From assembly GCA_963701095.1 (NCBI GenBank), contig OY969564.1:768001-832000 (forward strand): a stretch of DNA of 64,000 nucleotides, in the 5' to 3' direction. Positions 26,055 through 64,000 of this stretch are shown here, in pieces. The stretch is from an uncultured Methanoregulaceae archaeon. Its GTDB lineage: Archaea > Halobacteriota > Methanomicrobia > Methanomicrobiales > Methanospirillaceae. Below the pieces are notes generated by a model. The model did not search any database. It was not told the DNA's origin and was given only the letters and a program-made list of their open reading frames with translations. A program made the position numbers and the translations under genes. Positions within the stretch are counted from its first letter, which is position 1. Every line of letters starts with the position of its first letter.

Positions 26055-26068
26055 ACTTATATGCTCAA

Positions 26069-26515: not shown

Positions 26516-26596
26516 CATCAATTAGATATTCTTAAATTATTACAGTCTTTTTCCCATCCGAATCTCAAATCGGTGACCTGCCGCACTTAATACATA

Positions 26597-27286
26597 TCAC
26601 TGACCACCATTTTTAATTTCTATGACTTCCTTTTTTGGAAGTATTTCTATTACATAAGTAGAATTTTTTCTCTTCTGACCATCTTCACTAATAGTATTTT
26701 TAGCTGATTCACATGCTATTGCTGCTTTTTCGAGTAAATCCTTGCATGTATCATTAGCATTGTAGATTGTAACTCCACAACAGATTGTAATTCCACTTAA
26801 TACCATTTTTTTAGGCTTATCTATAATAAAGTTCCATTTTTCAACATTTTCCCTAAGACGTTCTGCAAATTGTCGTCCATGTTCGACATCGATACCTAAA
26901 TGTGACACTACTAAAAATTCATCACCGCCACAATAGAATATATAATCTTTTTCACGAATATTGAACACACTTTTCATTTGTCCAATAATCTGATCTCCAA
27001 CTTCATGATTTGAATCATAAATTTGTTTAAAATTATCTATATCAATGAGTATTACAACGAATGGTTGATTTGTTATTTGCGATTCTTGAATCTGATTATT
27101 AATTACCTCAAGAATTTGTTCTTTACTTAAGAGACCAGTATGGTTATCAATTTTATACGAATCTTCATTTATTACCCCATCTATTTTTTCATCAGTTTTT
27201 CGAGCTTGAATTAACGTGATAATCGCTATAATGACCGCTATAATAATTCCAATTATGGCCCAATAAGCGGTCTCAGAAATTTCCAT
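26597..27286 (-). CDS. Membrane-anchored GGDEF (diguanylate cyclase) protein
   Basis: N-terminal TM, DNHTGL, LIDIDNFK, H.VGD, intact GGDEF. Confidence 0.88.
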   Translation of the reverse strand: MEISETAYWAIIGIIIAVIIAIITLIQARKTDEKIDGVINEDSYKIDNHTGLLSKEQILEVINNQIQESQITNQPFVVILIDIDNFKQIYDSNHEVGDQIIGQMKSVFNIREKDYIFYCGGDEFLVVSHLGIDVEHGRQFAERLRENVEKWNFIIDKPKKMVLSGITICCGVTIYNANDTCKDLLEKAAIACESAKNTISEDGQKRKNSTYVIEILPKKEVIEIKNGGQ

Positions 27287-32174: not shown

Positions 32175-32218
32175 GGGGCACGTTGCAATCAAGCCAGACT
32201 TCAAAAGGTGAAAACGAT

Positions 32219-45825: not shown

Positions 45826-48800
45826 TTATTTTACATATGGACAAGAACCGCGCTTTTTTACTTTATTGCGGTTGAATCCCGGGGGGGTTGGTTTAAATCT
45901 GTCATCATCCGTTGATGCAAGTGGATGGGATACAAGTTGAGCTGGATAGTCTAATGATTGAAATTTTCTTAATTTTCCAATGTTTAATTCCGCAGTCAAA
46001 ATTGTATTATCATCGCCTCCTGATACGCGAAGTATATCCATTCTATCTTTTCTAGTAGGTTGAACGATCCTTGAATCTCCGAATTCTGAACAATTTACTT
46101 GGATGACATAGCAATGTAAATCCTTCACAACAGATTCCACTATCGAAGAAAAGTAATTTGTATCTTTATTTAATACACAAGCTATGAGTAAATCCAATTC
46201 TGATCTGAAAATGGCTCTGTGTTTAATATCAGAAACTTCATAGCAATTATAAATTGAGAATTGGCAGCCTCTCCACTTAAAAAGGTCGTATCTCGAACAT
46301 TTGTTTTCAGGAATCACTAATTTTTGTTCTTTTAAGTTCTCAATCTCTCTTGGTGCAAAATGATTTTTACATCGAATCGAGAGGCAACATGTCTTATATT
46401 TTTCCTTATTTTTTACGGGAAGAGCCGACACAATAAAATTATTTGCAACGCTCTCTTCTTTTTTAACTATCCAATATTCCATCCCGAAGATTAATGCCAT
46501 CTGATGATTACGTGCATATTTGACTAAAAAAGGCAACCATCGATATGGGATAGATAATTCTGGGAGTACAAGAAGGTCACAGCTTCGTTTTTTTGCTTGG
46601 TTAATAATTGAAAATAATTCTTTTTGACGTTTAAAAGTCAGATTAGGTTTTTCATTTTGATGATAACTTCTATTGACATCATCGTCAGCTATTTTGATAT
46701 TCGCCACACCCACCTTAATTTTTCCGGTCGGCTTCTCTGAATGCATTGAATATTTTTTTGGCACACAATGCTCAATTACTTCTATAATATCGTCATGATC
46801 AGAATAGGACAATTCCTTATTTTTCCTAATCGATATCGGAAAATTTTTATTGACGTGAGAAATCTCATTATAGTCTTCTTCAAGAGAATCTAATTTGATT
46901 TTATCTCCATGCAAAACTTGCTTGAGAAATTGAAAAAGGAAATATTCATCAAAATGAATGAATCTGGGGGATAATTCAAGTTTTTTCAGATTTAATTTAA
47001 ACGATTTTTCCGTAAACCTAGTCTCAAATCTATCCCACTCAATAAGGGATGATTCATAATTTGTATAATTAATCAAAGGATATGCAACGTAATTATGTTT
47101 GATAAGATTAGATTGTCTGAATTTTTTTGCATAATTACTGATTTTTTCAGACTGAGAATGAGAATCTCTAGCAAATGAATAACGTCGAAAAGATTCTTCG
47201 TTATGCTTTTCAAGATAAATATCCTTATCATTTCCTAGGAGACCAACGGGAATAGAAATTGCAATTAGTAGATATTCAAAAAGATTATTTTTTAGTTTTT
47301 TAAGTATTCCTTCATTAATTTGAGGGGTATTTTTGATTCCACAATCTTGATTTTTGATATTTTCCTCTGGGAAAAATTTTGTAATCTTAAGAATTGTTTC
47401 CTGAACATCGAAGAAAAATCTAGCTCCCTCTTTTTCTTGATTTGTCAATATTGTGAAAGAGAACAGTTTCTCCCATGTTTTACAAAAAGCAACGAAATTT
47501 TTTCCTTTGTAAAACTTAAACAACTGATCTGAAATTTTCTTTAAATCCTTATCATCAATTTCACTCTGATTTAAACCCGTAATTATATTTGTTAAATTCT
47601 TTGAGAATTCGGTAATATTCTCTACAATTCCAATAATATTTCTCCATTTGTTCGTTGATCCATCAAACAAAATATTGTAAGACTTTCTCGTTCACGTAAT
47701 ATTGCAGATTATCATCGGGTAAGAAAAAGAACGCACTTGCATTGTCATCTATTTTTTTCTTAAATGAATCTAACAACGCTTGGGATTGATCAGCTAAAAA
47801 GAAATGTAGAATCAATTTTTTCTCTTGAATTTGTAGCATGTCATCGCTAACAAGAAAATATGATTTCTTTTTTGGATCATAATTAAAAATTTCAGTCTTG
47901 CAAAAAAAATTATTCATAAAATTATAAATTTTATTATCCGGTTCAATTATTGGATCTCTCATAACTATAAGTATATCATCAACATACCTACCGTAATATT
48001 CCGGCTTCACCACTTTCAAAATTTTTTCATCCAAATCTTTCAGATGCCAGTTGCAAAGTAAACTTGATGAGGCTAACCCAATTGGCAATGGTAGAATATT
48101 ATTTGGAATGTGATTATGCGAATGACGAAATATCTCTCGAATACTTTTTTGATATTGCTGATGAATTCTTTCTAAAATATCGGTTAGTTTTATAGCGAAT
48201 TCTAACTCGTTGAAATCTCTTATTTTCCTTTTTAAGACCTTGCGGATATTATCGAAATCCGTATTAATGCAATAAAAACATTGCTTTAAGTCTAATGAAA
48301 GAATTGCAACATTCTCTTTATCAATATTAAGAATATTTTCTGCAGTTTTTAGAGCATTATTCCTCCAATCCTGGTATTGTGTATTATACAGTTTGAAAAT
48401 GTGGCTGCTGTGATCTTCGGATCTGAACAGACTGTCATTTAATCTGGATGCGTAACAGGATTTTGATAGTTCAGATTCTAGTTTAACACCCGCTTTCATT
48501 AACCAGATGACACTAATTAAGTGTAATTCAATGGGGGCATCAATGAAAAAATTTACACCCTCTAGATAGTATTCTTCAGAAGATTTCTGATTTGTTAAAA
48601 AATGTTCGTCGTGGTTTTTTGTTTTATTCTTTGAATCCTCCCTTTTTTTATCCTCTTGTGTTTTTACGGATTTTGGGAGTAAATTGTACCCAATTTTTTC
48701 AATATATGGATCTAAAATTGTGATATCGTTTTGTGAATTATCTTTTAAGGTATCAATTATTGAAGCAAAATTTATTAGTTTCTCTTGAAATTCCTCTGAG

Positions 48801-48907
48801 CATTCAAAATCGGCTAATTTTTTAATTTGAAATAAATTCAATGTTTCAAAATAAACCGTCTGTTTGAGTTTTTTATATGCGACATTTACTAAATCAGTTG
48901 AATCCAT
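45826..48907 (-). CDS. Reverse transcriptase-nitrilase fusion (DRT1/UG1-like), split by a frameshift near 47680
   Basis: RT motifs LDLKQCFY, LPIGLASS, YGRYVDD; nitrilase triad LPEL / KNH / NCYE; frames join at EK-YNILFDGSTNKWR. Confidence 0.85.
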
Positions 48908-49099
48908 TCTAGCCTTCTAGAAGATAAAATGAAATTTTATTATATATAAATTAGGTACTATCGTATCAAAATTAAACTAGTTAGGATATTCGCAATTGAG
49001 TTAACGGAGAAAGTTACACTCCATTCCGGGTTTGTCCTATCCTCAATTGGTTTTATTAGCCCTTAGCCTTTTCAGTCGAAGTCAAATGCATAATTCTTA

Positions 49100-49975
49100 T
49101 TAATGATTTAGAATTTTTTCCGGGCAGACCTCTGCATACTTACAACTCATACACTCCCTTTGCGAAGGCCGTGCCGGGAAATTCCCGAATTCGTAACTCG
49201 TGTTCATCGCCGCAAACTCACGGAGGATCATTTCCTGCACATTGTGTAACTGATCCTCATAGAAGGCGTAGGGTTTCGTTACGCCGGTTTTCAGGTAAAC
49301 AAGTTCTGTGCCAATATTATCGATACTCATCTTGTAGTATTCTTTTGCCCAGAGCACATATGCCATCATCTGAAGTTCCGTTTCGTACTCATCATCGTCC
49401 CTGCCGGTCTTCCAGTCCGTGAGGATGAGAGTGCTTTCAGGCATCCTCCCGACAAAATCAACCTTGACTGTTACCTCGACATCCTCAATATAGAAATGAT
49501 CATACTGCTCATGCCTTAGGCACCCCCGATTCTCATAGGCTGGCCATTTTCCGAAAAATGTCTGCAGGCATGTCTTTCCGTTCTCGTAGATATATGTAAA
49601 GAAAGTGCTGGGGATCTTCTCGCCGTTGTGGTATTCGGTGAAGGTCTCGCCGCCGATATTTTCGTACAGCGAAACTTTTTTCGAGAATGCATCTAGTGCC
49701 TCGGCAAGATCAATCGGCTTGTTCTCGCAATGGAGCTGGATCTGCTGGTCGATGATATCGTGGATGAGCTGTCCCTGAACGACAAATTTGGACGTGAAGT
49801 TCTTGAGCCACCGGATTTTATCCGGATCAACGACCACCTCACTTTTCACATACGGTGCGATGTACTCGTAATAATATTGCCTCTGGCACCGGTTCCAAAC
49901 CCTGTGTTTGGTAAACGACCACGTGTTGATCTTGAAGAAAAAGGGATCGAGATCCGGCATATGGTTCTGTTGCAA
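49100..49975 (-). CDS. PD-(D/E)XK nuclease, Cas4/AddB-like with four Cys
   Basis: WSFT..CQRQYYY, KVDF..DWKTG, LQMMAY, CMSC..C. Confidence 0.85.
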   Translation of the reverse strand: MQQNHMPDLDPFFFKINTWSFTKHRVWNRCQRQYYYEYIAPYVKSEVVVDPDKIRWLKNFTSKFVVQGQLIHDIIDQQIQLHCENKPIDLAEALDAFSKKVSLYENIGGETFTEYHNGEKIPSTFFTYIYENGKTCLQTFFGKWPAYENRGCLRHEQYDHFYIEDVEVTVKVDFVGRMPESTLILTDWKTGRDDDEYETELQMMAYVLWAKEYYKMSIDNIGTELVYLKTGVTKPYAFYEDQLHNVQEMILREFAAMNTSYEFGNFPARPSQRECMSCKYAEVCPEKILNH

Positions 49976-50203
49976 GGGAATCCCGAAATATGTTTCCTTT
50001 AAAGGGTCTAGTGGTTCTGTTAACTTAGTCAGGGATCGGATATTTTATTAGGAGTTGGAAAATTTGATAATCCCATAACAAGTTGACGGAGCCTTAGGAA
50101 CGATGATTGGGTTGGCGGTAAAATAAATCCCAATATCTTATTCAAATCATTAAACAATAAGTTTATTTTGTTATTTTCCCTTCATCTGAATAACAGATAT
50201 TAT

Positions 50204-50884
50204 ATGACACTTGTAGTTGTATTTCCAGCAAAAGACGGGGTTGTTATTGGTTCTGATACGCAATTAACAAGAGGAAGTACACGTTGTCAAGATCTGAAAA
50301 TTATAGGATTCAGTCCCAATTGTTTATGGGCTGCTGCGGGTGATATTCCTCTTATTCAACGATTTAAAAAAGAACTAAACAAAACACCTGCAAAAAAGAA
50401 ATCTTTGGAATCAACAAGAGATGAAATAAGTCAAATAATAAAGAAAGTAATGAGTCAAGCGATGAAAACCGACGTTCGTTTTGATATGGTTAGTCATCCA
50501 ACTGACCTTTTACGCCTATATAATCTTGAAATAATTTTTGCTGAGTACACTAATACACCCACAATATATCATTACTTAAATACAGGTGTTTCTGAAATTT
50601 TAGAGCGCCCTCATGCTATTGGTGTAGGCCATGATTTTGCATTTGCACTTTTACAAAAATACGAAAATACTATTCGTGAGTTTGATACAGATAAAGCCTT
50701 AATTTTAGTATATAAAATTCTTAACGAAGCCATTAAGGTTGGAGCCTATGATATTAATTTCCCTATTGATATTTGGGTTATAAAATCGAATGGAGCAAAG
50801 CCTATTCAAGGGGAAGAACTTGATACACTTCATAATAAATTTCAAGAATTGCAAGATAAAGAAGTAAAACTATTAATTCCGTAA
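50204..50884 (+). CDS. Proteasome-beta-like Ntn hydrolase
   Basis: M-T start (Thr1), DGVVIGSD, K near position 33, AAAG, AIG. Confidence 0.7.
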   Translation: MTLVVVFPAKDGVVIGSDTQLTRGSTRCQDLKIIGFSPNCLWAAAGDIPLIQRFKKELNKTPAKKKSLESTRDEISQIIKKVMSQAMKTDVRFDMVSHPTDLLRLYNLEIIFAEYTNTPTIYHYLNTGVSEILERPHAIGVGHDFAFALLQKYENTIREFDTDKALILVYKILNEAIKVGAYDINFPIDIWVIKSNGAKPIQGEELDTLHNKFQELQDKEVKLLIP

Positions 50885-51136: not shown

Positions 51137-51177
51137 CCTGTCGTTAACTTATAAGAACCCCACGATCCATCCCCATT

Positions 51178-51263
51178 CCCCAATCCCTCCCCATTCCTTC
51201 CTTTTCTGCCGAATTCATACCCAGATATAACCCCACAAAACACCAATATATTCAATGCCCGAT
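51178..51263 (+). promoter_or_regulatory. Repeated promoter/leader, copy A
   Basis: Pyrimidine tract + gccgaattcatacccagatataaccccacaaaacaccaatatattca-ATG(51255). Confidence 0.8.
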
Positions 51264-52380: not shown

Positions 52381-52845
52381 ATGCCGTCACTGTTCAACAA
52401 ACCGCTGAACCGCATCGTCCAGAACGATTTCGGCGGTGCCCTGTTCGCCCAGATCGGCCCGAACGCAACCCTCGCGTACATGATCCCCGGTGCTGTTGTC
52501 GCAAACGACACCTATGACAACTGTTTCAAGGAAGCCACCGATCCCAGCAACAACATCGGGGTGCTCGGGTACGAAGAAACCCTCCCGGCAAACCAGCCGC
52601 TCTCCATCACGAGCGCCTATACGGCCACCGGTACCAAGGTCGCCATCCACAACACCCCCGGTATGCGGTTCCATGCCTGGATCGCGGCAAACCAGAGTGT
52701 CAAACCGGGTACCCGGCTGAAATGCACCGCCGCCGGCCAGCTCACCCAGACGACTTCACCCACCGACCCTGTCAACGCGGTTGCCCTGGAGACGGTAACC
52801 AGCACCAGCGCATTCCAGGCGTGGTGTATCTGGACCATGAGGTGA
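52381..52845 (+). CDS. Head decoration/cement protein (probable)
   Basis: 154 aa beta-rich; VKPGTRL..AAGQL..AVALE; directly before the MCP. Confidence 0.55.
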   Translation: MPSLFNKPLNRIVQNDFGGALFAQIGPNATLAYMIPGAVVANDTYDNCFKEATDPSNNIGVLGYEETLPANQPLSITSAYTATGTKVAIHNTPGMRFHAWIAANQSVKPGTRLKCTAAGQLTQTTSPTDPVNAVALETVTSTSAFQAWCIWTMR

Positions 52846-52853
52846 TCTAAACC

Positions 52854-53758
52854 ATGACTTCCGATCTTACGTTTATTGAACGGACTTTTGACAAGGCCAT
52901 TGTCCAGGTCCTGCGTGAACCGACCGTGGGCTACAAGCTCATGCCGATGAACACCGATTTCCGGGGTATAGGAAAAGAGAGCGTTGAGTACTTCAACTAC
53001 AAACAGCGGGGCAGCGCGAAGATCGCGTACAGTTTTGACCGCAACGGTCCCGACACGATTGACGCCAACGGCACGATCATCAAGGTACCGATCCTCCAGA
53101 CCCAGGTCAAGATCCCGCGCCGGTCGTTCCAGATGATGGTCGACAACGGCGTCCCGTTATCCAACGATATCGCGTTCGATATGATCCGGGCGATCAATAT
53201 CCAGGTTGACGGGCTGGTGATCAACGGCTGGACAGAAGACGGCGTTACCTACGAATCGTTAGGCATGAGCCAGATTGCCGGGACTGCCGTTACCGGTGCG
53301 ACCGTCCAGACCTTCGGGAACACGTACAAGGCTATCCAGAAAGCCATTGCTGCGATGGTGCTTGCCGGTATTGATGCACCGGCCTACAACGCCCTCATGA
53401 ACCCTGTCCAGGCCGGGATCCTGAAAGGGTCTTTGAACGCGAACTCGGGCAACCCGGAAATGGCGATGGTTCTGGATGCGTTGAACCCGAACGGCGGCAA
53501 TACCGGGCAGTTCTTCCAGCGGTCTAACGTGCCGGCGGGATACATGATCGTTGCCCGGCACCGGTGGAAACGTCAAAGGCGTATTTCGATCTTATTGAGA
53601 CTGTGGCTCCCATGCACAACGCCTGGTTTGACAACGGGAACGAAAATACCGGTGATGTGTGGATCGAGCAGTATACCTGTCTTGTTCCCCGGTTCAAGCA
53701 CAAGGATCCTGTATTGCAAACCGATCCGGCTATCGCGTACGTATCTTCGATGACCTGA
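52854..53758 (+). CDS. Major capsid protein (HK97 fold), frameshifted near 53557
   Basis: About 300 aa in the capsid position; adding one C in GCC-CG joins it to APVETSKAYFDL..PRFK. Confidence 0.7.
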
Positions 53759-54300: not shown

Positions 54301-57300
54301 TTATTGGATGGTATTAGTGGTTCCTCCATTGATGGTATATTGAACTGATGTTCCATTTGCATATTTGAATTGATAGATATTGGGGAGCAGTTCAATACCG
54401 TTTGAGAATGTTCTCCAGCCATTCGCATAATATTGAGTAACATTTCCTGAGCTTGAAATCACTTGGCCTGTCTGGAAATTAACAATTAAATTGACGGAGG
54501 TATTTTGAATCAGCGTGTTTGTCCCACCTGCATAGGTCATTTGAAATGAATACGCTCCAGGTAGCATATTAAACATTGTCGAACCTGTTGAATCAGTTGT
54601 TCCAAACGGTTTCCATCCGTTGGCGTAATATGTTACAATTCCAGAGGATAGCGGGTTTCCGGCGCTATTCACCAATTTTACAGTTGCATTAGGAGCTTGG
54701 AATATTACTAACGAATTTTGACTGATATTCTGGGGAATATTGTTTGAGGTTCCAACGTAAACCATCTGGAATGTATACGATACAGGAAGAAGCTCAAGCG
54801 AGCAAGAGCCTCCGTTTGTTGATCCAAACGTCTTCCAACCGTTTGCGTAATACTGGACCGAACCGGCATTTGCAGCAGTAATAAGATTTCCATTACCGTC
54901 AATCAACTCTGTGGTGACATTAGTCGTCTGGAAGGTGACAGTGGGACTTACGCTTACGTTCTGAAGGAGGTTTTGCGCCCCTCCTGCATAGTCCATCTGG
55001 AACGTGTACGATAGAGGAAGGAGTTCTAGTGAACATATTCCGGCATTTGTGGATCCGAATGTCTTCCAGCCATTTGCGTAATATTGGACAGAACCGGCGC
55101 CTGGACCGGTTATGAGGTTGTTCTTACTGTCGAGTAATTTTACGGTCACATTTGTCGTCTGGAATGTTACAACAGATGATGAAATTACTGTTTGGAGCAG
55201 ATTTTGGGTTCCTCCACCATAATTCATTTGGAATGTATAGGTTCCCGGTGCAATATTCGATGTTGCAAGACCGTTTGCATTTGTCGTTCCAAAAGATTTC
55301 CAACCATTTGAGTAGTAATTGACTGTCGCACCAGAGATGCCTTGTCCCAGGCTATTCTTAAGAGCAACTGTAACACCTTGGGAGGTTTGGGGTGCATTCA
55401 CTTGAATATAATTAATGATGGTATCGGTATTGCTCCCACCTGCATTTGTAACCGTCAAACTCACAGTATAGTTACCAGCTGTACCAAAGGTGTGAGTGAC
55501 ATTCTGGAGGGAAGAATATGTACCGTCTCCGAAACTCCAGCTCCACGAAGTCGGTGAGTTCAGTGAGGTATCATTGAACTGTACAGTTAACGGAGCCGTT
55601 CCTGAAGTTGCATTTGATACAAACGAAGCAACCGGGGCGACGACGGGTGCTGAGACATTGATGTATTGAGTGACGGAGGTCATTCCTGCGTCATTTCCTG
55701 CAGTCAGAGTAACCGTGTAATTACCAACATTGCTATACGTATAGGTTGGATTTTGGAGAACTGATGAGTTCCCATCACCAATATTCCAAATCCAATAAGT
55801 GGGAGAATTCGTAGAGATGTCGGAAAATTGAACAGTCAATGGGGCCGCTCCCGTTGTCACATTAGAAGTGAAATTAGCATCGGGCGGATAAAACCCATCA
55901 ACGATAATATAATTATACTGTGTTCTTGTATCACTCCCAAGACCATTGCTTGCCGTTAATGAGACGGTATAATTTCCTGGATTTTGATAAGTATGTACCG
56001 GATTTTCCAAATTTGATTCCTGACCGTCCCCGAAATCCCATGACCATTGCGTTGAATTGCGAATGGATTCATCAGTAAATGTAACGGTCAACGGGCCAAA
56101 TCCTGAGGTAACATCTGAAGTAAATTGGGCACTTGGAGGGGCTGAAACGTTTAATTCCGTTGCATATTGGTTATTTAACTCTTGATCTTGTTGTTGAGAG
56201 AGATTGATGAGATTTGGAATTGTCTCATTATAATTAACAATTAATGATGTTGGTGCCATTAAAGTAAGATTCTTAATTGAATTTATCTCATGATCATTAT
56301 ATCCCATCTCCTTCAAGATCTGGATGTAATCCGATGGTAGACCGTTCTGACCGATTGCATTCTCTGCAGATATAATATCAGATTCAGTGGGCTGATACCC
56401 GATAGCTTGTAAATAATTTAATGCGGGACCTGACAAGACATTTTCTGTTTGATCATCATTCACCATTTTACTAGTATAATTGTAACATTCTATCTGTAAT
56501 TTTGCAGCCCAAATTGTATCATTAGCATCTAAAGCGCCTTCGTATTTGGCATATGCCTCTGCATAAGCCGAAGTGTCTGCTGCTGAAACGAGACTCTGTT
56601 GGGCAAATTTCTTTAATGGAGTATTCGGTGACTGATCAAGTTGTGGGATATCTATTGGTGTATCATTGATAGGCAAGGTGTAATTTGGATCCGGATCTGA
56701 GGCTGCCACATTATACTCTTCGCTTGTTTTAAATTCTGCAGCAGCCATTGTATACAGATCGGGATTATAAGTAGTAGTGGATATAGACTGTATAGATCCA
56801 CCTTCTTCTCCTTCATTCCCTCCGAACTCTATTACCAAAGTTGCGGTGGCTTGTAAAGACCAAATATCGCTAACTATTGAATGATAAAAACCTTGGGCAA
56901 GATCTATATCTTTTTCAAATGGTACAATTATTGGTACTATTATCGAAGTGCCTTGAGAAATATCGGGGGAGTTAAATTCATATTCATAATCAACCCCGTT
57001 ATCGGCAGCAATTAGGTTGCCGGCTTGAAGACCTGTCGATAAAATACTTAATAGTCTATCTACTTTATCTATTGCTTGCTGGAAAGGAGTACCTTCGTTT
57101 ATTGTTAGAGCATTCCCTACAGCATTTGCCATATCTGCGTCATTCGCAACATTATCAACGATCTCCTGCCCATTTTCATAATAGGTGTTACTTTCGAGCC
57201 ATAACCAATTCCAATCGTGTTGATAGTCCCCGCAAACAGGTCCTGTCAAATGGCGATGTTACCGTTACTGGGTGAGTTTCGTTATGTGTAGGTTGTATAG

Positions 57301-57859
57301 GACTGTGAGCAGTTATCCAATATGGCAATTCGGTTATGGTAATAGTGGTTGGGATAGAATAAGGCATCCCGTACGGATCGTGTAACTGTGCACATACTTG
57401 ATACGGCTGGTTCTTGTATAAAATAGGATTAATTACTGGGGAACAAATGCCATAAAGATTACATTGCCCAGCTTGCGAGTATACTTCATCGAAGGTGAGA
57501 GTCCCTATCCATGTAAGCTCGGCATTAATGGTATACGGGCCACTACTTTCAACATCAACCGTTGTTGACCAATCTTGGTATCCATAAAGCTTCACTGTAA
57601 TAGTATGAGTGCCATATTGTAAGAAATAGGCACCCGGAGTCACACCAGCAATCCCTGAACCATCCACAAAAAATTCAGCTCCAGCAGGAGTGGATGATAT
57701 ATCAACTTCTCCAGTGGGCGGTGGCGGGGTAGGAGTAGGGCCTCCAGATGGGGGGAGTGTAGCAGGTACCATCGGCATCATGCCTGCCGCCGATACAAAA
57801 TTGCTCATCATTACAACCATAAAAATTGCAAAAAATGAAATTATAAGTAGTCTTTTCAT
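54301..57859 (-). CDS. Secreted/surface protein with PEGA, three PKD domains and C-terminal YYANGW repeats; frameshifted near 57240
   Basis: Signal peptide, SSTPAGA (PEGA), W.W.FGDG/HTY..GNYTV PKD motifs, repeated VxYYANGWKxFG. Confidence 0.8.
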
Positions 57860-58012
57860 AAAATCAATATATTCATTAAAAAAATATACTATTTAACTTT
57901 TATCATTTAAATCTCTCATAATTTTGTCGATCATAAAATGAAAGAAAATGCTTCTTATACTGTAAAAACTTATTATAAATTTTAACAAAAAGTTTGTATA
58001 TCGTTATTTAAT

Positions 58013-58870
58013 CTATTTAATGCCATTCAATGCTACGAATATGAGTCCACTGATAAAAGTAATAATACCTAAGGAGATAATGAGGTAAATCGGTTTTGCT
58101 TTTTTTGCTATGTTCATGAGGAAATCTATCGCTAAATAACTGACGACAGTTGCGATAATTATTGTTATAACAATGCCAAGAATACCGGGACCAGCAATTG
58201 ATGCCATTAAATTAGCCGAATCAATACTAATCAACTCGCCTAAACTGGTGACGACTACGCATGCCAAAATAATTAGCGGCAAAAAAGAAAGGCGAAATGC
58301 TTCTTTTCCTTTGACATTTAATAATACAAGTGCGATTGTTGTTACCCCGGGAAGGCTTATCCCGGGAAGAAGGCAAAGATCTTGTATTATGCCAATAAGT
58401 ACGTATTCTCCGAATTTTATATCTAATAGCTGTCGCCTGAAATTATCATCTGTATATTTCGATTTAGAATACCAAATTACAAACGTATAAATAAAGAGGA
58501 TTATTCCAAGAAATGTTATGGGTAATCCGTCATTATACCACGAAAGTTGTCTAAGAACAAGCAATGGAAGAAAAAATACGAGACTAACAATACCTGTAAC
58601 AAGTATATATTTGAATAATCCCCACTCATCAGAGGTTCCCTTCCCAAGAAGTGCTTTAATGAGCGATATTATATCTTTCCTGAAATAAACAAGACCTGAT
58701 AAAGCAGTGCTGATATTTAGAATTAATACAAAATCAGATGCCTGAAGATTATTCAAGCCAAGAAGGTGTTGTGATAAAATGAATGCCTGACCACCAACTG
58801 GTAACCAAACGGTTACTGCCTGAATTACCCCAATAACTATTGAAAAGAAAATTTGTACAAGATTTAACAT
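58013..58870 (-). CDS. UppP/BacA-like membrane protein with degenerate catalytic motifs
   Basis: GVIQAVTVWLPVGG (cf. QGLTEFLPISS), PGISLPG (cf. PGxSRSG), AFRLSF. Confidence 0.7.
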   Translation of the reverse strand: MLNLVQIFFSIVIGVIQAVTVWLPVGGQAFILSQHLLGLNNLQASDFVLILNISTALSGLVYFRKDIISLIKALLGKGTSDEWGLFKYILVTGIVSLVFFLPLLVLRQLSWYNDGLPITFLGIILFIYTFVIWYSKSKYTDDNFRRQLLDIKFGEYVLIGIIQDLCLLPGISLPGVTTIALVLLNVKGKEAFRLSFLPLIILACVVVTSLGELISIDSANLMASIAGPGILGIVITIIIATVVSYLAIDFLMNIAKKAKPIYLIISLGIITFISGLIFVALNGIK

Positions 58871-59200
58871 AATATCAAAATATTGTATGACAAATTTTAT
58901 ATAATTTATTGTTATATTTGGGTCTACGAAAATTCTGCATCGCGTTGAAACTTTGCTCCTCCTGAAGACTTTTCAGAACCACAAAAAATAGCGATAATAA
59001 TTCCAATTATCCATAAACCGGTTTGATTATTCGATATATTAGATAAAGTTCCATTGATATCCATTGATAGAATAGCCTCACGGTATGATGCAATATAATT
59101 ACCGTTATTAAATAGCACACTTCATTTTCTATTGAATTAATCGGATAACTCCGAACTGAGGTGCCAATTTTCCCAAATTCAATCAATCCAACCGCTTTTT

Positions 59201-59286
59201 CCCCAATCCATCCCTTTTCCTCCCGTTTTTGCCGAATTCATACCCAGATATAACCCCATACAACCCCAATATATTCAATGCCCGAT
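59201..59286 (+). promoter_or_regulatory. Repeated promoter/leader, copy B
   Basis: gccgaattcatacccagatataaccccatacaaccccaatatattca-ATG(59278). Confidence 0.8.
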
Positions 59287-59894: not shown

Positions 59895-60376
59895 CGACCG
59901 TCTTTGACACCTCCGGCAATATCATGCAGGAAGTTACGGATATCAGCAACTACACGGTCCCCGGCACCATCTCCATTCCAACATTCCTGCGGTTCCTGGC
60001 CAAAGCCGAAGAACAGGTCACCCTCGATGACCCCGGGTTCCAGCTCGCACAATGCACCGAAGCCGTGGCTCTCTACATCTGCCACCAGATTTACCGGAAG
60101 ACCGGGAAAAGCGGCGTAACCTCGGAACGGTTGGGAAGTTACAGTTTTTCCCGGGGTAAAGGGGTGCAGCTCACTCCCTGGCTGGACGATTACTACGATC
60201 TCATCGAACGGGTCCGGGCACCGGTGATCTCGCTCAGTACGCTCGATACCAACGGTGTCCGGCGCGACGATGCAACCATGAACCTGCTCCGGCCCGACCA
60301 GGCATGGGTTGTGGGAAGCGACGAGCAAACAAACCCGCCGACCGGAGGCATGGGCGATCTCATGGGGTACCGGTGA
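59891..60376 (+). CDS. Head-tail adaptor protein (probable)
   Basis: AVALYICH..GVTSERLGSYS..S. Confidence 0.65.
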   Translation: MTTVFDTSGNIMQEVTDISNYTVPGTISIPTFLRFLAKAEEQVTLDDPGFQLAQCTEAVALYICHQIYRKTGKSGVTSERLGSYSFSRGKGVQLTPWLDDYYDLIERVRAPVISLSTLDTNGVRRDDATMNLLRPDQAWVVGSDEQTNPPTGGMGDLMGYR

Positions 60377-60630
60377 TGGCTGACGCCACAAAACCACAAA
60401 CCGACCGCGAATGGCTGGTCCAGATTGACGGCAAGGTGGACTCTATCCTTTCCCGGCTGGAAAAAGGGGATTCCTGTATGAAAGATTACAGTGACCGGCT
60501 CGATGCCCTGGAGAAGTTCCAGGCGAAGCTCATCGGCATTGCCATAAGTGTGTCTTTACTCGCATCGTTCTGCGGGTACTGGATACTCTGCAAGTTAAGC
60601 GAACTGGGTATCGGCGGCGGTGGTCGCTGA
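60376..60630 (+). CDS. Coiled-coil + TM small protein (holin/hemolysin-like architecture)
   Basis: MADATK..RLDALEK then a hydrophobic helix; TGATG coupling. Confidence 0.5.
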   Translation: MADATKPQTDREWLVQIDGKVDSILSRLEKGDSCMKDYSDRLDALEKFQAKLIGIAISVSLLASFCGYWILCKLSELGIGGGGR

Positions 60631-60975
60631 ATGGATATCACCAGTGGCCTGCTTGCCCAGACGGTAACTATCGCACCGTTCCTTTCCCTGAGCCAGAACG
60701 GTGACCGCAGTTTTGGGACACCGGTTACCTATCCCTGCCGGGAAGAAAACGAGATCCGGGTGATCAAGAACAAGCAGGGCGAAGATGCGGTGAATTCAAG
60801 CCAGCTCTATCTTTCGCCAACCTACACCGACGCTTCCGGGAACGTGTGGCCTACAGTGATTGGCTATTATGACCGGATTACGCTCCCCAGCGGTACGCAA
60901 CCGCCGGTAATCCTGAAGATTAACAGTTATACCGACCTTGACGGATCGGTGGCATACATCGAGGTCGATACCTGA
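60631..60975 (+). CDS. Head closure (stopper) protein (probable)
   Basis: QTVTI..GTPVTYPCR..SQLY..DRITLP. Confidence 0.6.
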   Translation: MDITSGLLAQTVTIAPFLSLSQNGDRSFGTPVTYPCREENEIRVIKNKQGEDAVNSSQLYLSPTYTDASGNVWPTVIGYYDRITLPSGTQPPVILKINSYTDLDGSVAYIEVDT

Positions 60976-61398
60976 TGACGGTGACGTTCACCCTTGAAGG
61001 AACTGACGAGGTTGTGGCAAACGTGAATCGAGCCCTGCAGGAAGTCCCGGAACTGGTGTTCGGGGAACTGGTGGGATATGCCGACCAGATACTTCTGGCA
61101 TCCGAACCACAGGTACCATGGAAGACCATGCACCTTGAAGAGACGGGAACGGTTGAACCGGTAGATGACGACCCCAACGCCGTCCAGATTGTGTATGATA
61201 CTCCCTACGCCGCTAAGCAGCACGAGGATTTGACCCTGCACCACCCGAAACCCGGGACCAAAGCGAAATACCTGGAGGATCCCGCGATGGCTATGGTACC
61301 GGAGATTGTACCGGGATTGTGGATAAACTGCAGGATTATTTCGATACTGGGGTTCCGGATGTGACTGCGTTATCTGCATGGGAACACTTGGATGAATA
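60975..61398 (+). CDS. HK97 gp10-like neck/tail-completion protein, probable frameshift near the 3' end
   Basis: VP.KT..L..YDTPYAAKQHE..KAKYLEDP; the alternative frame ends at TAA 61398. Confidence 0.7.
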
Positions 61399-61540
61399 AT
61401 CCCACGACGGTTCAGTTTCTTCGCCGGGACTTTTAAATAGTCAGCATTGATCAGATAATCCCGCTCTGAAGCAAATGTGAAGAAACAGCACTTGAGGACA
61501 TTGTATTGGGACAAAGAAAAGTTGCGCAGATACGTTTTGT

Positions 61541-62290
61541 CTATTTTTGAAGACCAAATATTATATTTGTTATTCGACTAGTTCCTATTCCACAACATCC
61601 AGTGTAAAATGATTCCCCTACTGGAATTTCCAAACCTTCAATAAAAATTCTTCCATGAAGATGAAACCCTACAACTTCGATCCAAGAATTATCAACCAAC
61701 ACCTCAATATCTCTAACCATAAGTTCTTTTGTATCGTTTTCTTCGTTGTTTTTTATAGAAATGCGTGTAGTTAATCCAAGATTTGATAGTGTGTTTTCTA
61801 AATTTTTCATTAATTCGCTCAAAATAAATTTTGCTTCATCAATTGGAGCGAACCATACGCATTCTATCCTTTGAAACTCGAATAGCCTATAATCATTTAC
61901 ATCTTTTTCAACTCTATAAGTCCATCCCGATTTATCAAAAAATTTTATCGTTTTATGGGGCTTCCTATTTTTTAAGAAATAGTAAAATGGTTCACATTGC
62001 CAATGTGATAAAGTATATTTTTTTGGATAATTCCGTGAACTCATTCCTTCTTCGGTGTTAATTATTTCTTTTGACCATTCTTTAGCAAATCGAGGGACAA
62101 CATTTTTTAAGTTACAAAATTGATCAAACATAAGTAATTTGGGAAAGAGACACTCTTCAAACCCAGCTTCAGTTAAAGATTGCGCTAATTTTGATTCAAC
62201 TGCTCTAAATTTTGAAGTATATTCTGGCAAATATAGTCTTTGACCCTGCCACCCAATTTCTTCCCATAACTCTTTCTTTTTATTTTTCAT
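61541..62290 (-). CDS. Stand-alone catalytic domain of a methanogen-type seryl-tRNA synthetase paralog
   Basis: GFEECLFPKL (motif 1), QCEPFY, FFDKSGWTYRVE..EFQRIE (motif 2), HG..FIEG, TGCCGIGTSR (motif 3); only 249 aa. Confidence 0.8.
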   Translation of the reverse strand: MKNKKKELWEEIGWQGQRLYLPEYTSKFRAVESKLAQSLTEAGFEECLFPKLLMFDQFCNLKNVVPRFAKEWSKEIINTEEGMSSRNYPKKYTLSHWQCEPFYYFLKNRKPHKTIKFFDKSGWTYRVEKDVNDYRLFEFQRIECVWFAPIDEAKFILSELMKNLENTLSNLGLTTRISIKNNEENDTKELMVRDIEVLVDNSWIEVVGFHLHGRIFIEGLEIPVGESFYTGCCGIGTSRITNIIFGLQK

Positions 62291-62293
62291 ATT

Positions 62294-63271
62294 TTAAACC
62301 TTCCGAATTTTTTCAAAATGTTCTAATAAATATTTAAGCGCCGTTTCTTTAATAACTGGTTTTCCAGAATGATCTTTTACAATGTTTTCATACGAAGAAT
62401 AATCATTATCGCCAATTTTTATTGTTTTATACATTTGAAAAACTATGTAATCAAAAATTAATTTAATGAATTCGTTTGAACATTTATTAATAATATCTGC
62501 AATCACCTCAGGATCTTGATCACTATATATTGAATTTGAGGATTTCCCAGTGGAAAGGGGCAAGGAGTCAGTTCCACATAAAGTGTCAAAGTACAAGATT
62601 AATGGGGCATTATAATCGGGAAGGCCGCCATCAACAACAACCTTCCTCATTAATCCGCCCCAAATTGTTTCAACATCACCTTTTCCTGTCAACAACACTT
62701 GGCTTTTAACAATGTTTCCATAGGAAATTTCACAAAAATTATTTATTAAATCCCTAATCGGATTTTCCCTAACAATCCATTTTTTAATCCATTCTTCGTT
62801 GAAATCACATTTATACGCAATTGATAAGAGTGTGTTTGAAAATTTTTCATAACCTATATATTCCAAAATATTAGATTCTGTTAAAAATTCTGTTTTGGTT
62901 GGTGTCAATCCAGCTTGTATGTACCTTTTAATACAAGTTTCAACTCTCTTATCTATAGTTGGTTTTGGGATATGTTGTTGTTTTTCAATTAATTGGTCAT
63001 AAAATAACACCACACAATTAAATCCCTGATCTATACATTGCTTAATTTTTAGGCAAAATATTGCATGGAGAAGGTTATACTCTTCTGATGGTTGAACATT
63101 CCAAATTAAAATTGGGGCTTCTTTTTTATCATTGATTTTATCCCAAATAATATGTAACTCCGAATCTGCGGAACCAGACGTAGAATAGCGAGATAATTCT
63201 ACCTTTGGTGAAATTATTAAAATTTTATTTTTAAATTCCTGAAATGTTTCAGCTTTTTCAATCATGTTCAT
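62294..63271 (-). CDS. Tyrosyl-tRNA-synthetase-like class I protein with degenerate HIGH/KMSKS
   Basis: IWNVQPS..NLLH..GFNCVVLFYD, LLTGKGD, LCGTD..PLSTGK..NSI..D.PEVI. Confidence 0.6.
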   Translation of the reverse strand: MNMIEKAETFQEFKNKILIISPKVELSRYSTSGSADSELHIIWDKINDKKEAPILIWNVQPSEEYNLLHAIFCLKIKQCIDQGFNCVVLFYDQLIEKQQHIPKPTIDKRVETCIKRYIQAGLTPTKTEFLTESNILEYIGYEKFSNTLLSIAYKCDFNEEWIKKWIVRENPIRDLINNFCEISYGNIVKSQVLLTGKGDVETIWGGLMRKVVVDGGLPDYNAPLILYFDTLCGTDSLPLSTGKSSNSIYSDQDPEVIADIINKCSNEFIKLIFDYIVFQMYKTIKIGDNDYSSYENIVKDHSGKPVIKETALKYLLEHFEKIRKV

Positions 63272-63698
63272 TCGACCCCAGATAATTTTTCAGGAATTGC
63301 TTTATCTCATCAAAGGATTTGAAAATAAAAAATATGATGGTTAAAATAATGCCTATTATTCCAATATAGAAATCAAATATAGGTACTGTAACAAATTCAT
63401 TTTTCCATAAATAATTCAAAATCTCAATAATTAGGACTACTAGTGAAAGAAAAGTTATTATTAAACATAATAATCTGATTTTAATAATCTTTTCTGAAGA
63501 AATATTGTATCGTTTTTCTTTAGATAATATATATCTATTAAAACCATTTCTCGTAACTTTAATATTAGGATTCTTAAACACATCAAATATTTTGCTTGCA
63601 TTTTCGTTTGGAATCTCAATTTTTATTTCCACATCACCAGATAATGTTAATATCAACTGCTCAAGACTACTGATATCATTAATTATTTTTTGTTCCAT
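63258..63698 (-). CDS. Two-TM membrane protein, first gene of the aaRS-like operon
   Basis: Two hydrophobic helices; overlaps the next gene. Confidence 0.65.
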   Translation of the reverse strand: MEQKIINDISSLEQLILTLSGDVEIKIEIPNENASKIFDVFKNPNIKVTRNGFNRYILSKEKRYNISSEKIIKIRLLCLIITFLSLVVLIIEILNYLWKNEFVTVPIFDFYIGIIGIILTIIFFIFKSFDEIKQFLKNYLGSNEHD

Positions 63699-63894
63699 AG
63701 GTCATGATTGATAATGTTACTAACGATATCTCCACTTACATGATATAATTTTTGAATCAATCAATCGTATTGTGTTAAGGGGAATTTAGACGTCCCTTTG
63801 ATGCGGAGTAATGTTGACCAAACACAATAAAATAATCTTTTGAGAATATTAGACTTAAAAAGAGGGTTGTAAAATTCTTTTAAAAAGTCTTCTT

Positions 63895-63974
63895 TTCCAA
63901 AATCCCCCATTTTCCTCCCGATTTTGCCGAATTCATATTCAGATATAACCCGTAAAACACCACTATATTCAATG
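63895..63974 (+). promoter_or_regulatory. Repeated promoter/leader, copy C
   Basis: gccgaattcatattcagatataacccgtaaaacaccactatattca-ATG(63972). Confidence 0.78.
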
Positions 63975-64000
63975 GCCTATTTTCAGCTCGCATTGGTCAA
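63972..64000 (+). CDS. Start of the next viral gene (MAYFQLALV), truncated by the window edge
   Basis: ATG directly after leader copy C. Confidence 0.5.

What the first reader, a model, noticed from the sequence alone, without database searches (positions are those of the whole stretch)
61541..63698. Provirus-borne operon pairing a tRNA-binding-less SerRS with a degenerate TyrRS and a membrane protein
Seen: three coupled minus-strand genes, AT-rich, inserted between virion gene blocks. The 249-aa protein keeps methanogen-type SerRS motifs 1-3, including the apparent Zn ligands (QC, RIE, GC), but lacks the N-terminal tRNA-binding domain. The 325-aa protein follows the TyrRS layout with HIGH replaced by NLLH and KMSKS by PLSTG. 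Established: truncated homologs of methanogen-type SerRS act as amino acid:[carrier protein] ligases in bacteria, but no acyl-carrier protein gene is visible here. Inference: the class I shell may supply tRNA or substrate binding to the class II catalytic unit. That would give a hybrid enzyme for mis-acylation, aminoacyl transfer or signal synthesis, with a TM effector, plausibly for antiviral defence given the neighbouring cargo. I know of no described system with this composition.
Basis: partly seen in the sequence, partly recalled or inferred. Interest (0 to 1): 0.85.

Follow-up and report, generated by a model that had tools for sequence, protein, structure and literature searches.

The report
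Synthetase-derived gene trio in provirus
An archaeal provirus carries a rare trio of genes that always travel together: a stripped-down serine-tRNA-synthetase core, a disabled tyrosine-tRNA-synthetase look-alike and a small membrane protein, which probably form an undescribed amino-acid-activating machine whose target is unknown.

Summary
Three coupled minus-strand genes (61541-63698, GC about 0.30) sit between GC-rich head and tail genes of a provirus in a Methanoregula-like archaeon.

- **P1 (249 aa)** is a minimal core of methanogen-type SerRS. Motifs 1-3, the Zn ligands (C99, E143, C232) and the ATP arginines are invariant in its 23-member alignment. It lacks the tRNA-binding domain and two SerRS-specific insertions.
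- **P2 (325 aa)** is a full-length archaeal-TyrRS fold (Z 27). HIGH, KMSKS, all four tyrosine-binding residues and the tRNA-Tyr determinants are replaced or deleted. Its family has only 29 members among 1.8 billion representatives, with its own conserved cleft residues.
- **P3 (146 aa)** has a small N-terminal domain and two TM helices.

P2 lies directly upstream of P1 in 8 of 8 foreign loci that have upstream DNA. P3 is present in 4 of 4 loci with room for it. The loci are bacterial and archaeal, at 34-59% GC.

These are not decayed serS/tyrS genes and not aa:[carrier protein] ligases. No carrier or PPTase hit was found in the host genome. The trio is absent from the 300 same-order genomes searched.

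Best reading: a mobile, membrane-associated aminoacyl-adenylate-forming complex with a non-tRNA acceptor, probably serving virus-host conflict. Neither the function nor P1-P2 binding has been shown.

The parts
61541..62290 (-). P1: minimal class II synthetase core derived from methanogen-type (type-2) SerRS, 249 aa. It keeps motif 1 (F44 E46 P50 K51), the Zn site (Q98 C99, E143, C232), motif 2 (R126 E128) and motif 3 (R239). It has no N-terminal tRNA-binding domain.
   Evidence: (AF2 pLDDT 89.9)
62294..63271 (-). P2: full-length archaeal-TyrRS-fold protein, 325 aa, without HIGH (NLLH 66-69), without KMSKS (PLSTG 238-242), and without the Tyr-binding and tRNA-Tyr-recognition residues. Family-specific conserved cleft residues are N58 P61 H69 D92 E128 E132 Y184 W204 P223.
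   Evidence: (AF2 pLDDT 90.7)
63258..63698 (-). P3: small membrane protein, 146 aa. It has an N-terminal soluble domain of about 65 aa with a conserved RxG(F) hairpin motif (R50 G52) and two hydrophobic helices (about 69-99 and 101-132).
   Evidence: (alignment of 5)
63743..63752 (-). TATA-like A/T stretch about 45-55 nt upstream of the P3 start codon; a candidate archaeal promoter of the trio. Read from the sequence only.
   Evidence: not tested
61512..61520 (-). T-run about 20 nt after the P1 stop codon; a candidate oligo-T terminator. Read from the sequence only.
   Evidence: not tested
63894..63981 (+). Copy of an 88-nt repeat that marks the right edge of each AT-rich cargo island in this provirus. 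It bounds the trio's island.

Best explanation
The three genes form one conserved, horizontally mobile module.

- **P1** is an active Zn-dependent amino-acid-adenylating enzyme. It descends from methanogen-type SerRS but has been stripped of everything that SerRS uses to hold tRNA. Two pocket positions that are invariant in SerRS are changed, so its amino acid need not be serine.
- **P2** is a TyrRS-derived pseudo-synthetase. It cannot activate tyrosine or read tRNA-Tyr, but its former active-site cleft is under selection for a new ligand.
- **P3** ties the pair to the membrane, or is the part acted upon.

Most likely P1 forms an aminoacyl-adenylate and hands the aminoacyl group (or an adenylate-derived product) to a non-tRNA acceptor that P2 binds or presents, at the membrane. 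The module rides as lysogen-expressed cargo in a variable slot of an archaeal tailed provirus. It most probably serves virus-host conflict: superinfection exclusion, envelope change or abortive defence.

Shown: descent, folds, conserved catalytic residues, strict gene linkage, mobility. Inferred: complex formation, acceptor, membrane site, biological role.
For: **P1**
- Type-2 SerRS core: E 1.9e-26 and 3w3s E 5e-18 at TM 0.78.
- 38 invariant columns in 23 sequences at 39-63% identity, including the Zn ligands and both ATP arginines.
- 37 of 89 columns that are at least 92% conserved in 26 type-2 SerRS are kept. These are motifs 1-3 and the Zn site. Two SerRS-specific insertions are gone, and A->W97, S->G208 and N->H210 are fixed.
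- The family, together with L004 and L089, is separated from the 26 SerRS by a long branch with 100 SH-aLRT support and is not nested in them (quick tree).
- No fused or longer form was found: 20 of 20 longer hits are ordinary 511-551-aa SerRS.

**P2**
- Only 29 relatives among 1.84 billion representatives.
- The profile hits A. fulgidus TyrRS at E 1.1e-14 over positions 35-301.
- Model pLDDT 90.7. TyrRS scores Z 25.6-27.0 over 282-296 residues, against Z 9.2-11.6 for cyclodipeptide synthases.
- The conserved residues fall on former active-site positions.

**Linkage**
- A P2 homologue lies directly upstream of P1 in 8 of 8 foreign loci with upstream DNA. The ninth locus starts 65 nt before P1.
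- A P3 homologue lies upstream in 4 of 4 loci with room.
- Locus GC ranges from 0.34 to 0.59.

**Mobility**
- 0 of 300 other same-order genomes carry it. Their 6 weak hits are canonical TyrRS with HLGH and KMSSS.
- The same slot in a same-genus provirus remnant holds a different gene.

**Context**
- Other AT-rich islands of the same provirus carry a DRT UG5 reverse transcriptase plus nitrilase (E 2.6e-106 and 5.2e-134) and an NsnA/PD-T4-2_A-like protein (E 8.6e-72).
- In L086 the next gene is an AriA/OLD/GajA-like ATPase, and in L088 the upstream gene is DUF433.
Against: - No experiment or expression data exist.
- No PADLOC or PHROG family matches any of the three proteins.
- No relative was found in IMG/VR, phage or plasmid collections, so the module is not typically virus-borne.
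- Several foreign loci lie among ordinary genes. L087 has beta-lactamase-family, MacB/FtsX and pyruvate dehydrogenase E1 genes. L003, L004 and L089 look ordinary by eye but were not scanned.
- The window's own P2 has Q at a position where at least 90% of the family has D (D191 column).
- The acceptor is unknown, and nothing shows that P3 is more than an anchor.
Confidence: 0.5

Rival explanations
1. Envelope or lipid aminoacylation, with Dlt- or MprF-like logic. P1 activates an amino acid, P2 positions a lipid or glycan head group, and P3 anchors the pair. The result is a changed cell surface, which may block virus adsorption as a by-product. In this reading it is a surface-modification enzyme system, not an immune system.
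For: - A 2-TM partner is conserved in 4 of 4 loci with room.
- The neighbouring cargo island in the same provirus carries surface proteins and BacA (PKD, PEGA, PF02673).
- Several foreign loci lie among ordinary chromosomal genes.
- Wall D-alanylation by an adenylating enzyme is reported to disrupt phage adsorption (abstract of PMC11409987, listing).
Against: - P3 is too small to be a transferase or flippase.
- No MBOAT, MprF-like or carrier component is present in the module.
- P2's conserved cleft is rich in acidic residues, which suits a cationic or amino ligand better than a phosphate head group (inference).
Confidence: 0.2
2. Signal-based abortive defence. P2 senses an infection cue in its repurposed cleft and switches on P1. 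P1 makes an adenylate-derived nucleotide signal (Ap4A-like or aminoacyl-AMP). That signal opens or assembles P3 as a membrane-disrupting effector, following CBASS/Pycsar logic.
For: - The architecture is nucleotide-using enzyme plus small TM protein.
- The module sits in a cargo slot of a provirus that also carries DRT and NsnA-like systems.
- There is an AriA/OLD-like neighbour in L086.
- Distribution is patchy: 0 of 300 same-order genomes.
- From general knowledge, recalled and not taken from a call here: class II synthetases can make Ap4A from the aminoacyl-adenylate.
Against: - No known signal-receptor domain is present in P3.
- No PADLOC hit.
- The context is not defence-like in L087.
Confidence: 0.15
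3. P2 binds a tRNA or tRNA-like RNA by surfaces other than the TyrRS determinants, and P1 (mis)acylates it, acting as a toxin or a counter-defence.
For: - P2 keeps the whole TyrRS fold, including the C-terminal domain (Z 27 over 288 residues).
- P1 keeps an intact motif 2 and motif 3.
Against: - Positions equivalent to MjaTyrRS Arg174/Lys175 are not conserved, and the G34-holding elements are deleted (roles from PMC1934993 passages).
- P1 lacks the SerRS N-terminal tRNA-binding domain and two SerRS insertions.
- The P2 family is mostly acidic: net charge is -1 or lower in 22 of 24 members.
- No tRNA gene or Rfam RNA lies in any module locus.
Confidence: 0.1
4. A biosynthetic ligase of the amino acid:[carrier protein] ligase kind, or another natural-product pathway, whose carrier or acceptor is encoded elsewhere.
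For: - P1 is a truncated homologue of methanogen-type SerRS, as those ligases are (review passages in PMC9437257).
- Their structures are recognisable matches: 4h2w, 3pzc and 3mey at TM 0.74-0.76.
Against: - NF005479 scores only 15.5 bits against a cut-off of 357 (E 0.006), while type-2 SerRS gives E 1.9e-26.
- The ligases rank 36-48 behind SerRS and ProRS in Foldseek.
- No carrier gene lies in or beside the module.
- PF00550 and PF01648 gave no hit in the host genome, which is 86% complete.
- No tailoring or export genes are linked.
Confidence: 0.04
5. Decayed remnants of ordinary serS and tyrS genes, with no function.
For: Both score below the curated family cut-offs.
Against: - Frames are intact in all loci.
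- 38 invariant columns span 39-63% identity.
- Fold models are confident.
- Synteny is strict across bacteria and archaea.
- A long separate branch divides the family from SerRS.
- The host keeps its own normal TyrRS and SerRS elsewhere.
Confidence: 0.01

Closest known systems
Methanogen-type (type-2) seryl-tRNA synthetase (NF002120 / TIGR00415; PDB 3w3s, 2cim)
   Same: The catalytic core fold, motifs 1-3, the Zn site (Cys, Glu, Cys) and the QCEPFY and DxSGW signatures.
   Different: - About 250 aa instead of about 520.
- No N-terminal tRNA-binding domain (PF18490).
- Two SerRS-specific insertions are missing.
- Three SerRS-invariant positions are changed and fixed (W97, G208, H210).
- It forms a separate long-branch clade.
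Amino acid:[carrier protein] ligases (NF005479; PDB 3mey, 3pzc, 4h2w)
   Same: A truncated, stand-alone, Zn-type class II core related to methanogen-type SerRS. By analogy it is expected to adenylate an amino acid and pass it to a non-tRNA acceptor.
   Different: - Only marginal sequence similarity (15.5 bits), with structural rank behind SerRS.
- Shorter.
- No carrier protein gene alongside, and no PP-binding or PPTase hit in the host.
- Partnered instead with a TyrRS-like protein and a TM protein.
Archaeal/eukaryotic-type tyrosyl-tRNA synthetase (PF00579; PDB 2cyb, 2cya, 1j1u)
   Same: Full-length fold, including the C-terminal domain (Z 27.0, rmsd 2.6, 288 residues; profile E 1.1e-14).
   Different: - HIGH has become NLLH.
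- KMSKS has become PLSTG.
- The four Tyr-binding residues (Y, Q, D, Q) have become N177, E181, Y184 and V200.
- The positions of Arg174/Lys175 are not conserved.
- The G34-binding elements are deleted.
Cyclodipeptide synthases
   Same: A class Ic synthetase-like Rossmann scaffold that has lost the ATP motifs and uses the old amino-acid pocket for an aminoacyl moiety (passages of PMC4159871). This is a precedent for how P2 could work.
   Different: - CDPSs are about 220-250 aa without the C-terminal domain.
- They match P2 only at Z 9.2-11.6 over the N-terminal part.
- They use aminoacyl-tRNAs, for which nothing speaks here.
HisZ, a catalytically inactive HisRS paralogue that regulates HisG
   Same: A pseudo-synthetase kept as a ligand-binding partner of another enzyme (passage of PMC9437257). 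This is a precedent for a regulatory role of P2.
   Different: Different class and a different partner. No sequence relation was tested.

Membership tests
Type-2 (methanogen-type) SerRS | Class II catalytic core with motifs 1-3 and the Cys/Glu/Cys zinc site | tested here: met
   C99, E143, C232, R126 and R239 are invariant in 23 of 23 sequences.
Type-2 (methanogen-type) SerRS | N-terminal tRNA-binding domain and full length of about 520 aa | tested here: not met
   P1 aligns to profile positions 212-479 of 518 only. All 36 relatives are 191-277 aa. The longer hits are ordinary SerRS with PF18490.
Type-2 (methanogen-type) SerRS | Score above the curated family cut-off | tested here: not met
   92.7 bits against 611 (NF002120) and 79 against 489.55 (TIGR00415).
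Type-2 (methanogen-type) SerRS | Charges tRNA-Ser with serine | not testable with these tools
   Needs an aminoacylation assay.
Amino acid:[carrier protein] ligase | Sequence membership (NF005479) | tested here: not met
   15.5 bits against a cut-off of 357, E 0.0062.
Amino acid:[carrier protein] ligase | Phosphopantetheinyl carrier protein as acceptor, usually encoded nearby | tested here: not met
   No PP-binding hit among the module or its neighbours. PF00550 and PF01648 gave no hit in the host genome, which is 86% complete.
Tyrosyl-tRNA synthetase (class Ic) | Rossmann catalytic domain plus C-terminal domain fold | tested here: met
   Z 27.0 over 288 residues aligned.
Tyrosyl-tRNA synthetase (class Ic) | HIGH and KMSKS signature motifs | tested here: not met
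   NLLH and PLSTG. Only the last His of HIGH is kept in the family.
Tyrosyl-tRNA synthetase (class Ic) | Tyr-binding residues (the Y, Q, D, Q of YPxxQxxD and DQ) and the tRNA-Tyr determinant readers | tested here: not met
   alignment with the host TyrRS. Residue roles come from PMC1934993 passages.
Cyclodipeptide synthase | Compact fold of about 220-250 aa without a C-terminal domain, with a conserved catalytic Ser, Y and E pocket | tested here: inconclusive
   Structural match of Z 9.2-11.6 on the N-terminal part only. P2 is 325 aa with the C-terminal domain. The catalytic residues were not mapped.
Known anti-phage defence systems (PADLOC-DB 2.0) | Match to a model of a known or candidate defence protein | tested here: not met
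   No hit at E <= 0.001 for any of the three proteins.

The most novel reading that the evidence does not exclude
A new class of mobile conflict system built from both synthetase classes. A pseudo-class-I synthetase senses or presents a ligand. A minimal Zn-dependent class II core turns ATP and an amino acid into an aminoacyl mark or an adenylate-derived signal. A two-helix membrane protein executes the outcome. The system protects the lysogen of an archaeal virus, and bacteria that acquired it, against other viruses.
Probability: 0.3. Interest if true: 0.9.

Novelty: new variant of a known kind. Interest (0 to 1): 0.75.

Why it matters
Synthetase paralogues with non-translational jobs are known one at a time: aa:[carrier protein] ligases, HisZ, PoxA, cyclodipeptide synthases. 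Here a class II catalytic core and a class I pseudo-enzyme are locked together with a membrane protein in one mobile operon. That operon occurs in both archaea and bacteria, and no paper found in six library searches describes such a module.

If the pair works as proposed, it would be a new route from amino-acid activation to a non-tRNA target. It might also be the first synthetase-derived module in virus-host conflict.

It is directly testable. P1 has clear catalytic residues to mutate, and the module is only 2.2 kb.

It also shows that methanogen-type SerRS cores were recruited at least twice for non-tRNA work.

Tried and rejected
- **Complex prediction of P2 with P1**: no verdict (score 0.00, controls not run). 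This is not evidence either way.
- **Sequencing runs**: no RNA holder was listed, so nothing can be said on expression.
- **ESM Atlas for P3**: best feature score 0.78 and structure TM at most 0.41. No usable lead.
- **PADLOC, PHROGs, Pfam and NCBIfam for P3**: nothing significant.
- **P1 against IMG/VR, phage and plasmid collections**: no relative.
- **Word-indexed search with P2**: found only a 238-aa fragment identical to P2's residues 88-325. The exhaustive search was needed.
- **A possible fourth gene**: the 145-aa frames next to the module in the host (L163:2049-2486) and in L087 (6748-7185) are unrelated and look like chance frames in GC-rich DNA.
- **Fused P2-P1 or longer P1 forms**: none among the 20 longer hits.
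- **tRNA or known RNA in module loci**: none in the module loci themselves; the only tRNA gene found is tRNA-Thr at L163:18761-18834, some 17 kb past the trio.
- **Earlier findings of this scan**: nothing held.
- **Papers PMC2930448 and PMC1478180** are not held. The numbering of Zn ligands and serine-pocket residues in M. barkeri SerRS is therefore not cited from a paper. The zinc site is cited from a review passage (PMC7373986).
- **Careful tree**: did not finish in time. Only the quick tree is reported.
Full report
**What is there.** P3 and P2 overlap by 14 nt, and P2 and P1 are 3 nt apart. GC falls from 0.565 (60001-61000) to 0.307 and 0.284 (62001-64000).

The host is an archaeon: a TATA-binding protein gene lies at 1429-1983. 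A host glyceraldehyde-3-phosphate dehydrogenase clusters at 90% identity or more with proteins that NCBI names Methanoregula sp..

The window holds a tailed provirus:
- integrase at 18708;
- terminase at 39918 and portal at 41290;
- head decoration and major head proteins at 52381-53753;
- connector and minor-head proteins at 60631-61364.

Beyond the window end lie the major tail protein, tape measure, Dit and minor tail proteins (L163), followed by tRNA-Thr. The trio therefore sits between head-completion and tail genes, on the opposite strand.

**P1.** P1 matches methanogen-type SerRS with E 1.9e-26 (NF002120, profile positions 310-483 of 518) and 2.6e-22 (TIGR00415, positions 212-479). This is far below the curated cut-offs because half of the enzyme is missing. 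The aa:[carrier protein] ligase model gives only 15.5 bits. In the PDB the best sequence matches are M. kandleri and M. barkeri SerRS.

The word-indexed search found 36 relatives, all 191-277 aa, at 42-65% identity. An alignment of 23 has 38 invariant columns. These include:
- motif 1;
- the HWQCEPFY stretch with the first Zn cysteine;
- DxSGWxxRxE (motif 2);
- RLxEFQRxE with the Zn glutamate;
- GxHxHG;
- TGCCGIGxSR (the second Zn cysteine and the motif 3 arginine).

Against 26 full-length type-2 SerRS taken from fetched loci, 37 of 89 columns that are at least 92% conserved in SerRS are kept in the family. Two SerRS-specific insertions are absent. Three SerRS-invariant positions are changed to other fixed residues: A to W97, S to G208 and N to H210. 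I read the last two as pocket changes, so the substrate need not be serine. This rests on recall of the M. barkeri structure and is not verified here. The zinc mechanism itself is cited from a review passage (PMC7373986).

The AF2 model (pLDDT 89.9) matches SerRS cores best: 3w3s at E 5e-18, then the 2cim series. The carrier-protein ligases rank 36-48.

In a quick IQ-TREE tree, the family plus two distant relatives (L004, L089) is split from the 26 SerRS by a branch with 100 SH-aLRT support and length about 2.9. It is not nested in any SerRS lineage. The careful search did not finish, and the long branches of L004 and L089 make their exact place unsure. A search among longer proteins gave only ordinary SerRS of 511-551 aa at 27-31% identity, 20 of 20, so no fused form is known.

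**P2.** On its own, P2 gives only marginal class Ic hits (PF00579 E 0.051; 2cyb E 0.31). The exhaustive search of 1.84 billion representatives found just 29 proteins at E 0.001 or better, and 24 at 1e-10 or better. None is an ordinary TyrRS.

A profile of 24 members hits A. fulgidus TyrRS at E 1.1e-14 over positions 35-301. The AF2 model (pLDDT 90.7, pTM 0.90) superposes on archaeal and eukaryotic TyrRS over its whole length:
- Foldseek E 9e-16, TM 0.78;
- VIA Z 27.0, rmsd 2.6, 288 residues.

TrpRS scores Z 15.8-23.4 and cyclodipeptide synthases Z 9.2-11.6, the latter on the N-terminal part only.

I aligned P2 with the host's own TyrRS, which has HLGH, YPIMQMAD, GGIDQRK and KMSSS. In the window protein:

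| TyrRS element | In P2 |
|---|---|
| HIGH | NLLH; only the last His is near-invariant |
| Tyr-binding Y, Q, D of YPxxQxxD | N177, E181, Y184 |
| Q of DQ | V200 |
| KMSKS loop | PLSTG |

The roles of these residues come from passages of PMC1934993. The same paper gives Arg174 and Lys175 of M. jannaschii TyrRS as readers of C1-G72, and His283 as stacking on G34. In the P2 family the first two positions are variable (E201 and T202 here). The segments that carry the G34-stacking residues are deleted, as gaps of 7 and 5 columns (the same gap appears).

What the family does conserve is N58, P61, H69, D92, E128, E132, Y184, the D191 column, W204 and P223. These fall on or next to the former active-site cleft. 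The cleft, not a tRNA surface, appears to be what selection maintains. The window's own protein has Q in the D191 column.

**P3.** P3 has an N-terminal part of about 65 residues with an invariant R50 and G52. It has two hydrophobic helices (about 69-99 and 101-132) and a short tail. No family or Atlas lead was found.

**Linkage.** Genome and metagenome scans with the P1 alignment returned mostly true SerRS: 157 and 169 relatives respectively, with the best 80 of each kept. Nine foreign loci belong to the truncated family: L003, L004 and L083-L089.

HMMs of both families were run over all frames of these loci. They place a P2 homologue immediately upstream of P1 in 8 of the 9 loci. In the ninth (L004) the contig begins 65 nt before P1. 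A P3 homologue precedes P2 in all 4 loci that reach far enough: L084, L085, L087 and L088.

The loci span GC 0.34-0.37 and 0.59. One is from a Chitinophagaceae MAG, one from an uncultured archaeon (record titles), and L087 has bacterial-type neighbours. Strongly acidic members in both families suggest halophile hosts as well, which is an inference.

**Mobility and context.** The P2 profile found nothing comparable in 300 other genomes of the same order, including 0 of 48 of the same genus at E 1e-10 or better. The six weak hits are canonical TyrRS.

A same-genus genome (G086) has a remnant of a related provirus. There the slot after the minor-head homologue holds an unrelated 271-aa frame instead.

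Other AT-rich islands of this provirus carry:
- a split DRT UG5 reverse transcriptase and nitrilase (E 2.6e-106 and 5.2e-134);
- a Cas4-like nuclease;
- an NsnA/PD-T4-2_A-like protein (E 8.6e-72) next to a RiboL-PSP HEPN protein.

In L086 the next gene starts like an AriA/OLD/GajA ATPase, and in L088 a DUF433 gene lies upstream.

Against a defence reading:
- no PADLOC or PHROG hit for the trio;
- no relatives in IMG/VR, phage or plasmid collections;
- ordinary neighbours in L087 and, by eye only, in L003, L004 and L089.

Contigs of runs from other studies carry the trio and its left junction without any differing letter inside the trio, so the arrangement is real in nature.

**What it is not.**
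- Not decayed serS/tyrS: see the conservation, models, synteny and tree above. The host has its own TyrRS, TrpRS and a 443-aa SerRS-like frame elsewhere.
- Not a member of the carrier-protein ligases. Sequence membership fails, no carrier lies nearby, and PF00550 and PF01648 gave no hit in the 2.6-Mb host genome (86% complete).
- Not a TyrRS-style tRNA binder. No tRNA or Rfam RNA lies in any module locus.

**How it most likely works.** P1 has everything a class II core needs to bind ATP, Zn and an amino acid and to make an aminoacyl-adenylate. It has nothing with which SerRS holds tRNA. P2 has lost everything needed for adenylation and tRNA-Tyr recognition, yet it keeps a selected cleft. P3 is membrane-bound. 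The genes are translationally coupled and never found apart.

The simplest model is a membrane-associated complex. In it P1 activates an amino acid, and P2 binds or presents the acceptor, or gates P1 as HisZ gates HisG. The biological role is probably in virus-host conflict, given where the module rides.

Confidence:
- about 0.85 that it is a real functional module with an active P1 and a non-catalytic P2;
- about 0.5 for the mechanism as stated;
- about 0.4 for a conflict role.

Complex formation could not be assessed. The single prediction job gave no verdict.

**Novelty.** The following library searches returned nothing on such a module:
- truncated methanogen-type SerRS and carrier proteins;
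- synthetase-like proteins in anti-phage defence;
- aaRS-like, TyrRS-like and SerRS-like operons;
- methanogenic-type SerRS;
- carrier-protein ligases and aaRS homologues.

A 2022 review's table of synthetase paralogues lists no TyrRS paralogue function and, for SerRS, only SLIMP and the carrier-protein ligases (passages of PMC9437257). Subscription journals and supplements were not searchable. I rate it a new variant of a known kind (synthetase paralogues with non-translational roles), with a fair chance that the system as a whole is categorically new.

Noticed in passing
window 51176-51263, 59199-59286, 63894-63981; also L163 about 4665-4745 and 5765-5848; genome C1:16858-17139 (L178): An 88-nt direct repeat with TATA-like stretches sits at the right edge of each AT-rich minus-strand cargo island, exactly where the GC-rich plus-strand virion genes resume. 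Its ATG is the start of the frames at 51255 and 59278. It could be a repeated restart promoter or 5' end for virion genes, or a recombination landing pad for cargo cassettes.
   Followed up: partly
window 45826-50884: An AT-rich island with a split DRT UG5 system (reverse transcriptase at 47663-48907, nitrilase-domain protein at 45826-47670), a Cas4-like PD-(D/E)XK nuclease (49100-49975) and a proteasome-subunit-like protein (50168-50884), all inside the virion gene block.
   Followed up: partly
window 24951-27286: An NsnA/PD-T4-2_A-like GmrSD_N protein with an adjacent RiboL-PSP HEPN protein, and a GGDEF/Cas10-palm-like protein on the other strand, in a 30-32% GC island near the provirus left end.
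   Followed up: partly
window 61310: All four metagenome runs laid on the region carry one extra C behind 61310 compared with the window. The 3' end of the minor-head frame 60975-61364 may therefore be frameshifted by an assembly indel.
   Followed up: no
window 54301-58870: A cargo island with a 982-aa PKD-repeat protein, a PEGA-domain protein and a BacA undecaprenyl-diphosphatase homologue. This is cell-surface cargo rather than defence.
   Followed up: no
window 31865-33997: A 710-aa protein with an Amidase_2 (N-acetylmuramoyl-L-alanine amidase) domain and five TIG domains, endolysin-like by PHROGs, in a provirus of an archaeon that is not expected to have murein.
   Followed up: no
L177 (G086:C70) 1929-2744: In a same-genus genome, the slot after the minor-head homologue holds an unrelated 271-aa plus-strand frame with no Pfam-independent PADLOC hit. 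The position is a variable cargo slot.
   Followed up: partly
L163 3772-5658 (just beyond the window end): Two more minus-strand cargo genes, each followed by a copy of the 88-nt repeat, lie between the tail chaperone region and the tape measure gene: a 234-aa protein with a weak SlpA_N hit and a 278-aa flavodoxin-domain protein.
   Followed up: no
L089 492-1370 and L004 69-821: Two distant relatives of P1 (29% and 39% identity) keep the Zn and ATP residues. L089 also has a weak P2 homologue upstream (E 3.3e-9), which suggests an older, wider superfamily of the pair.
   Followed up: partly
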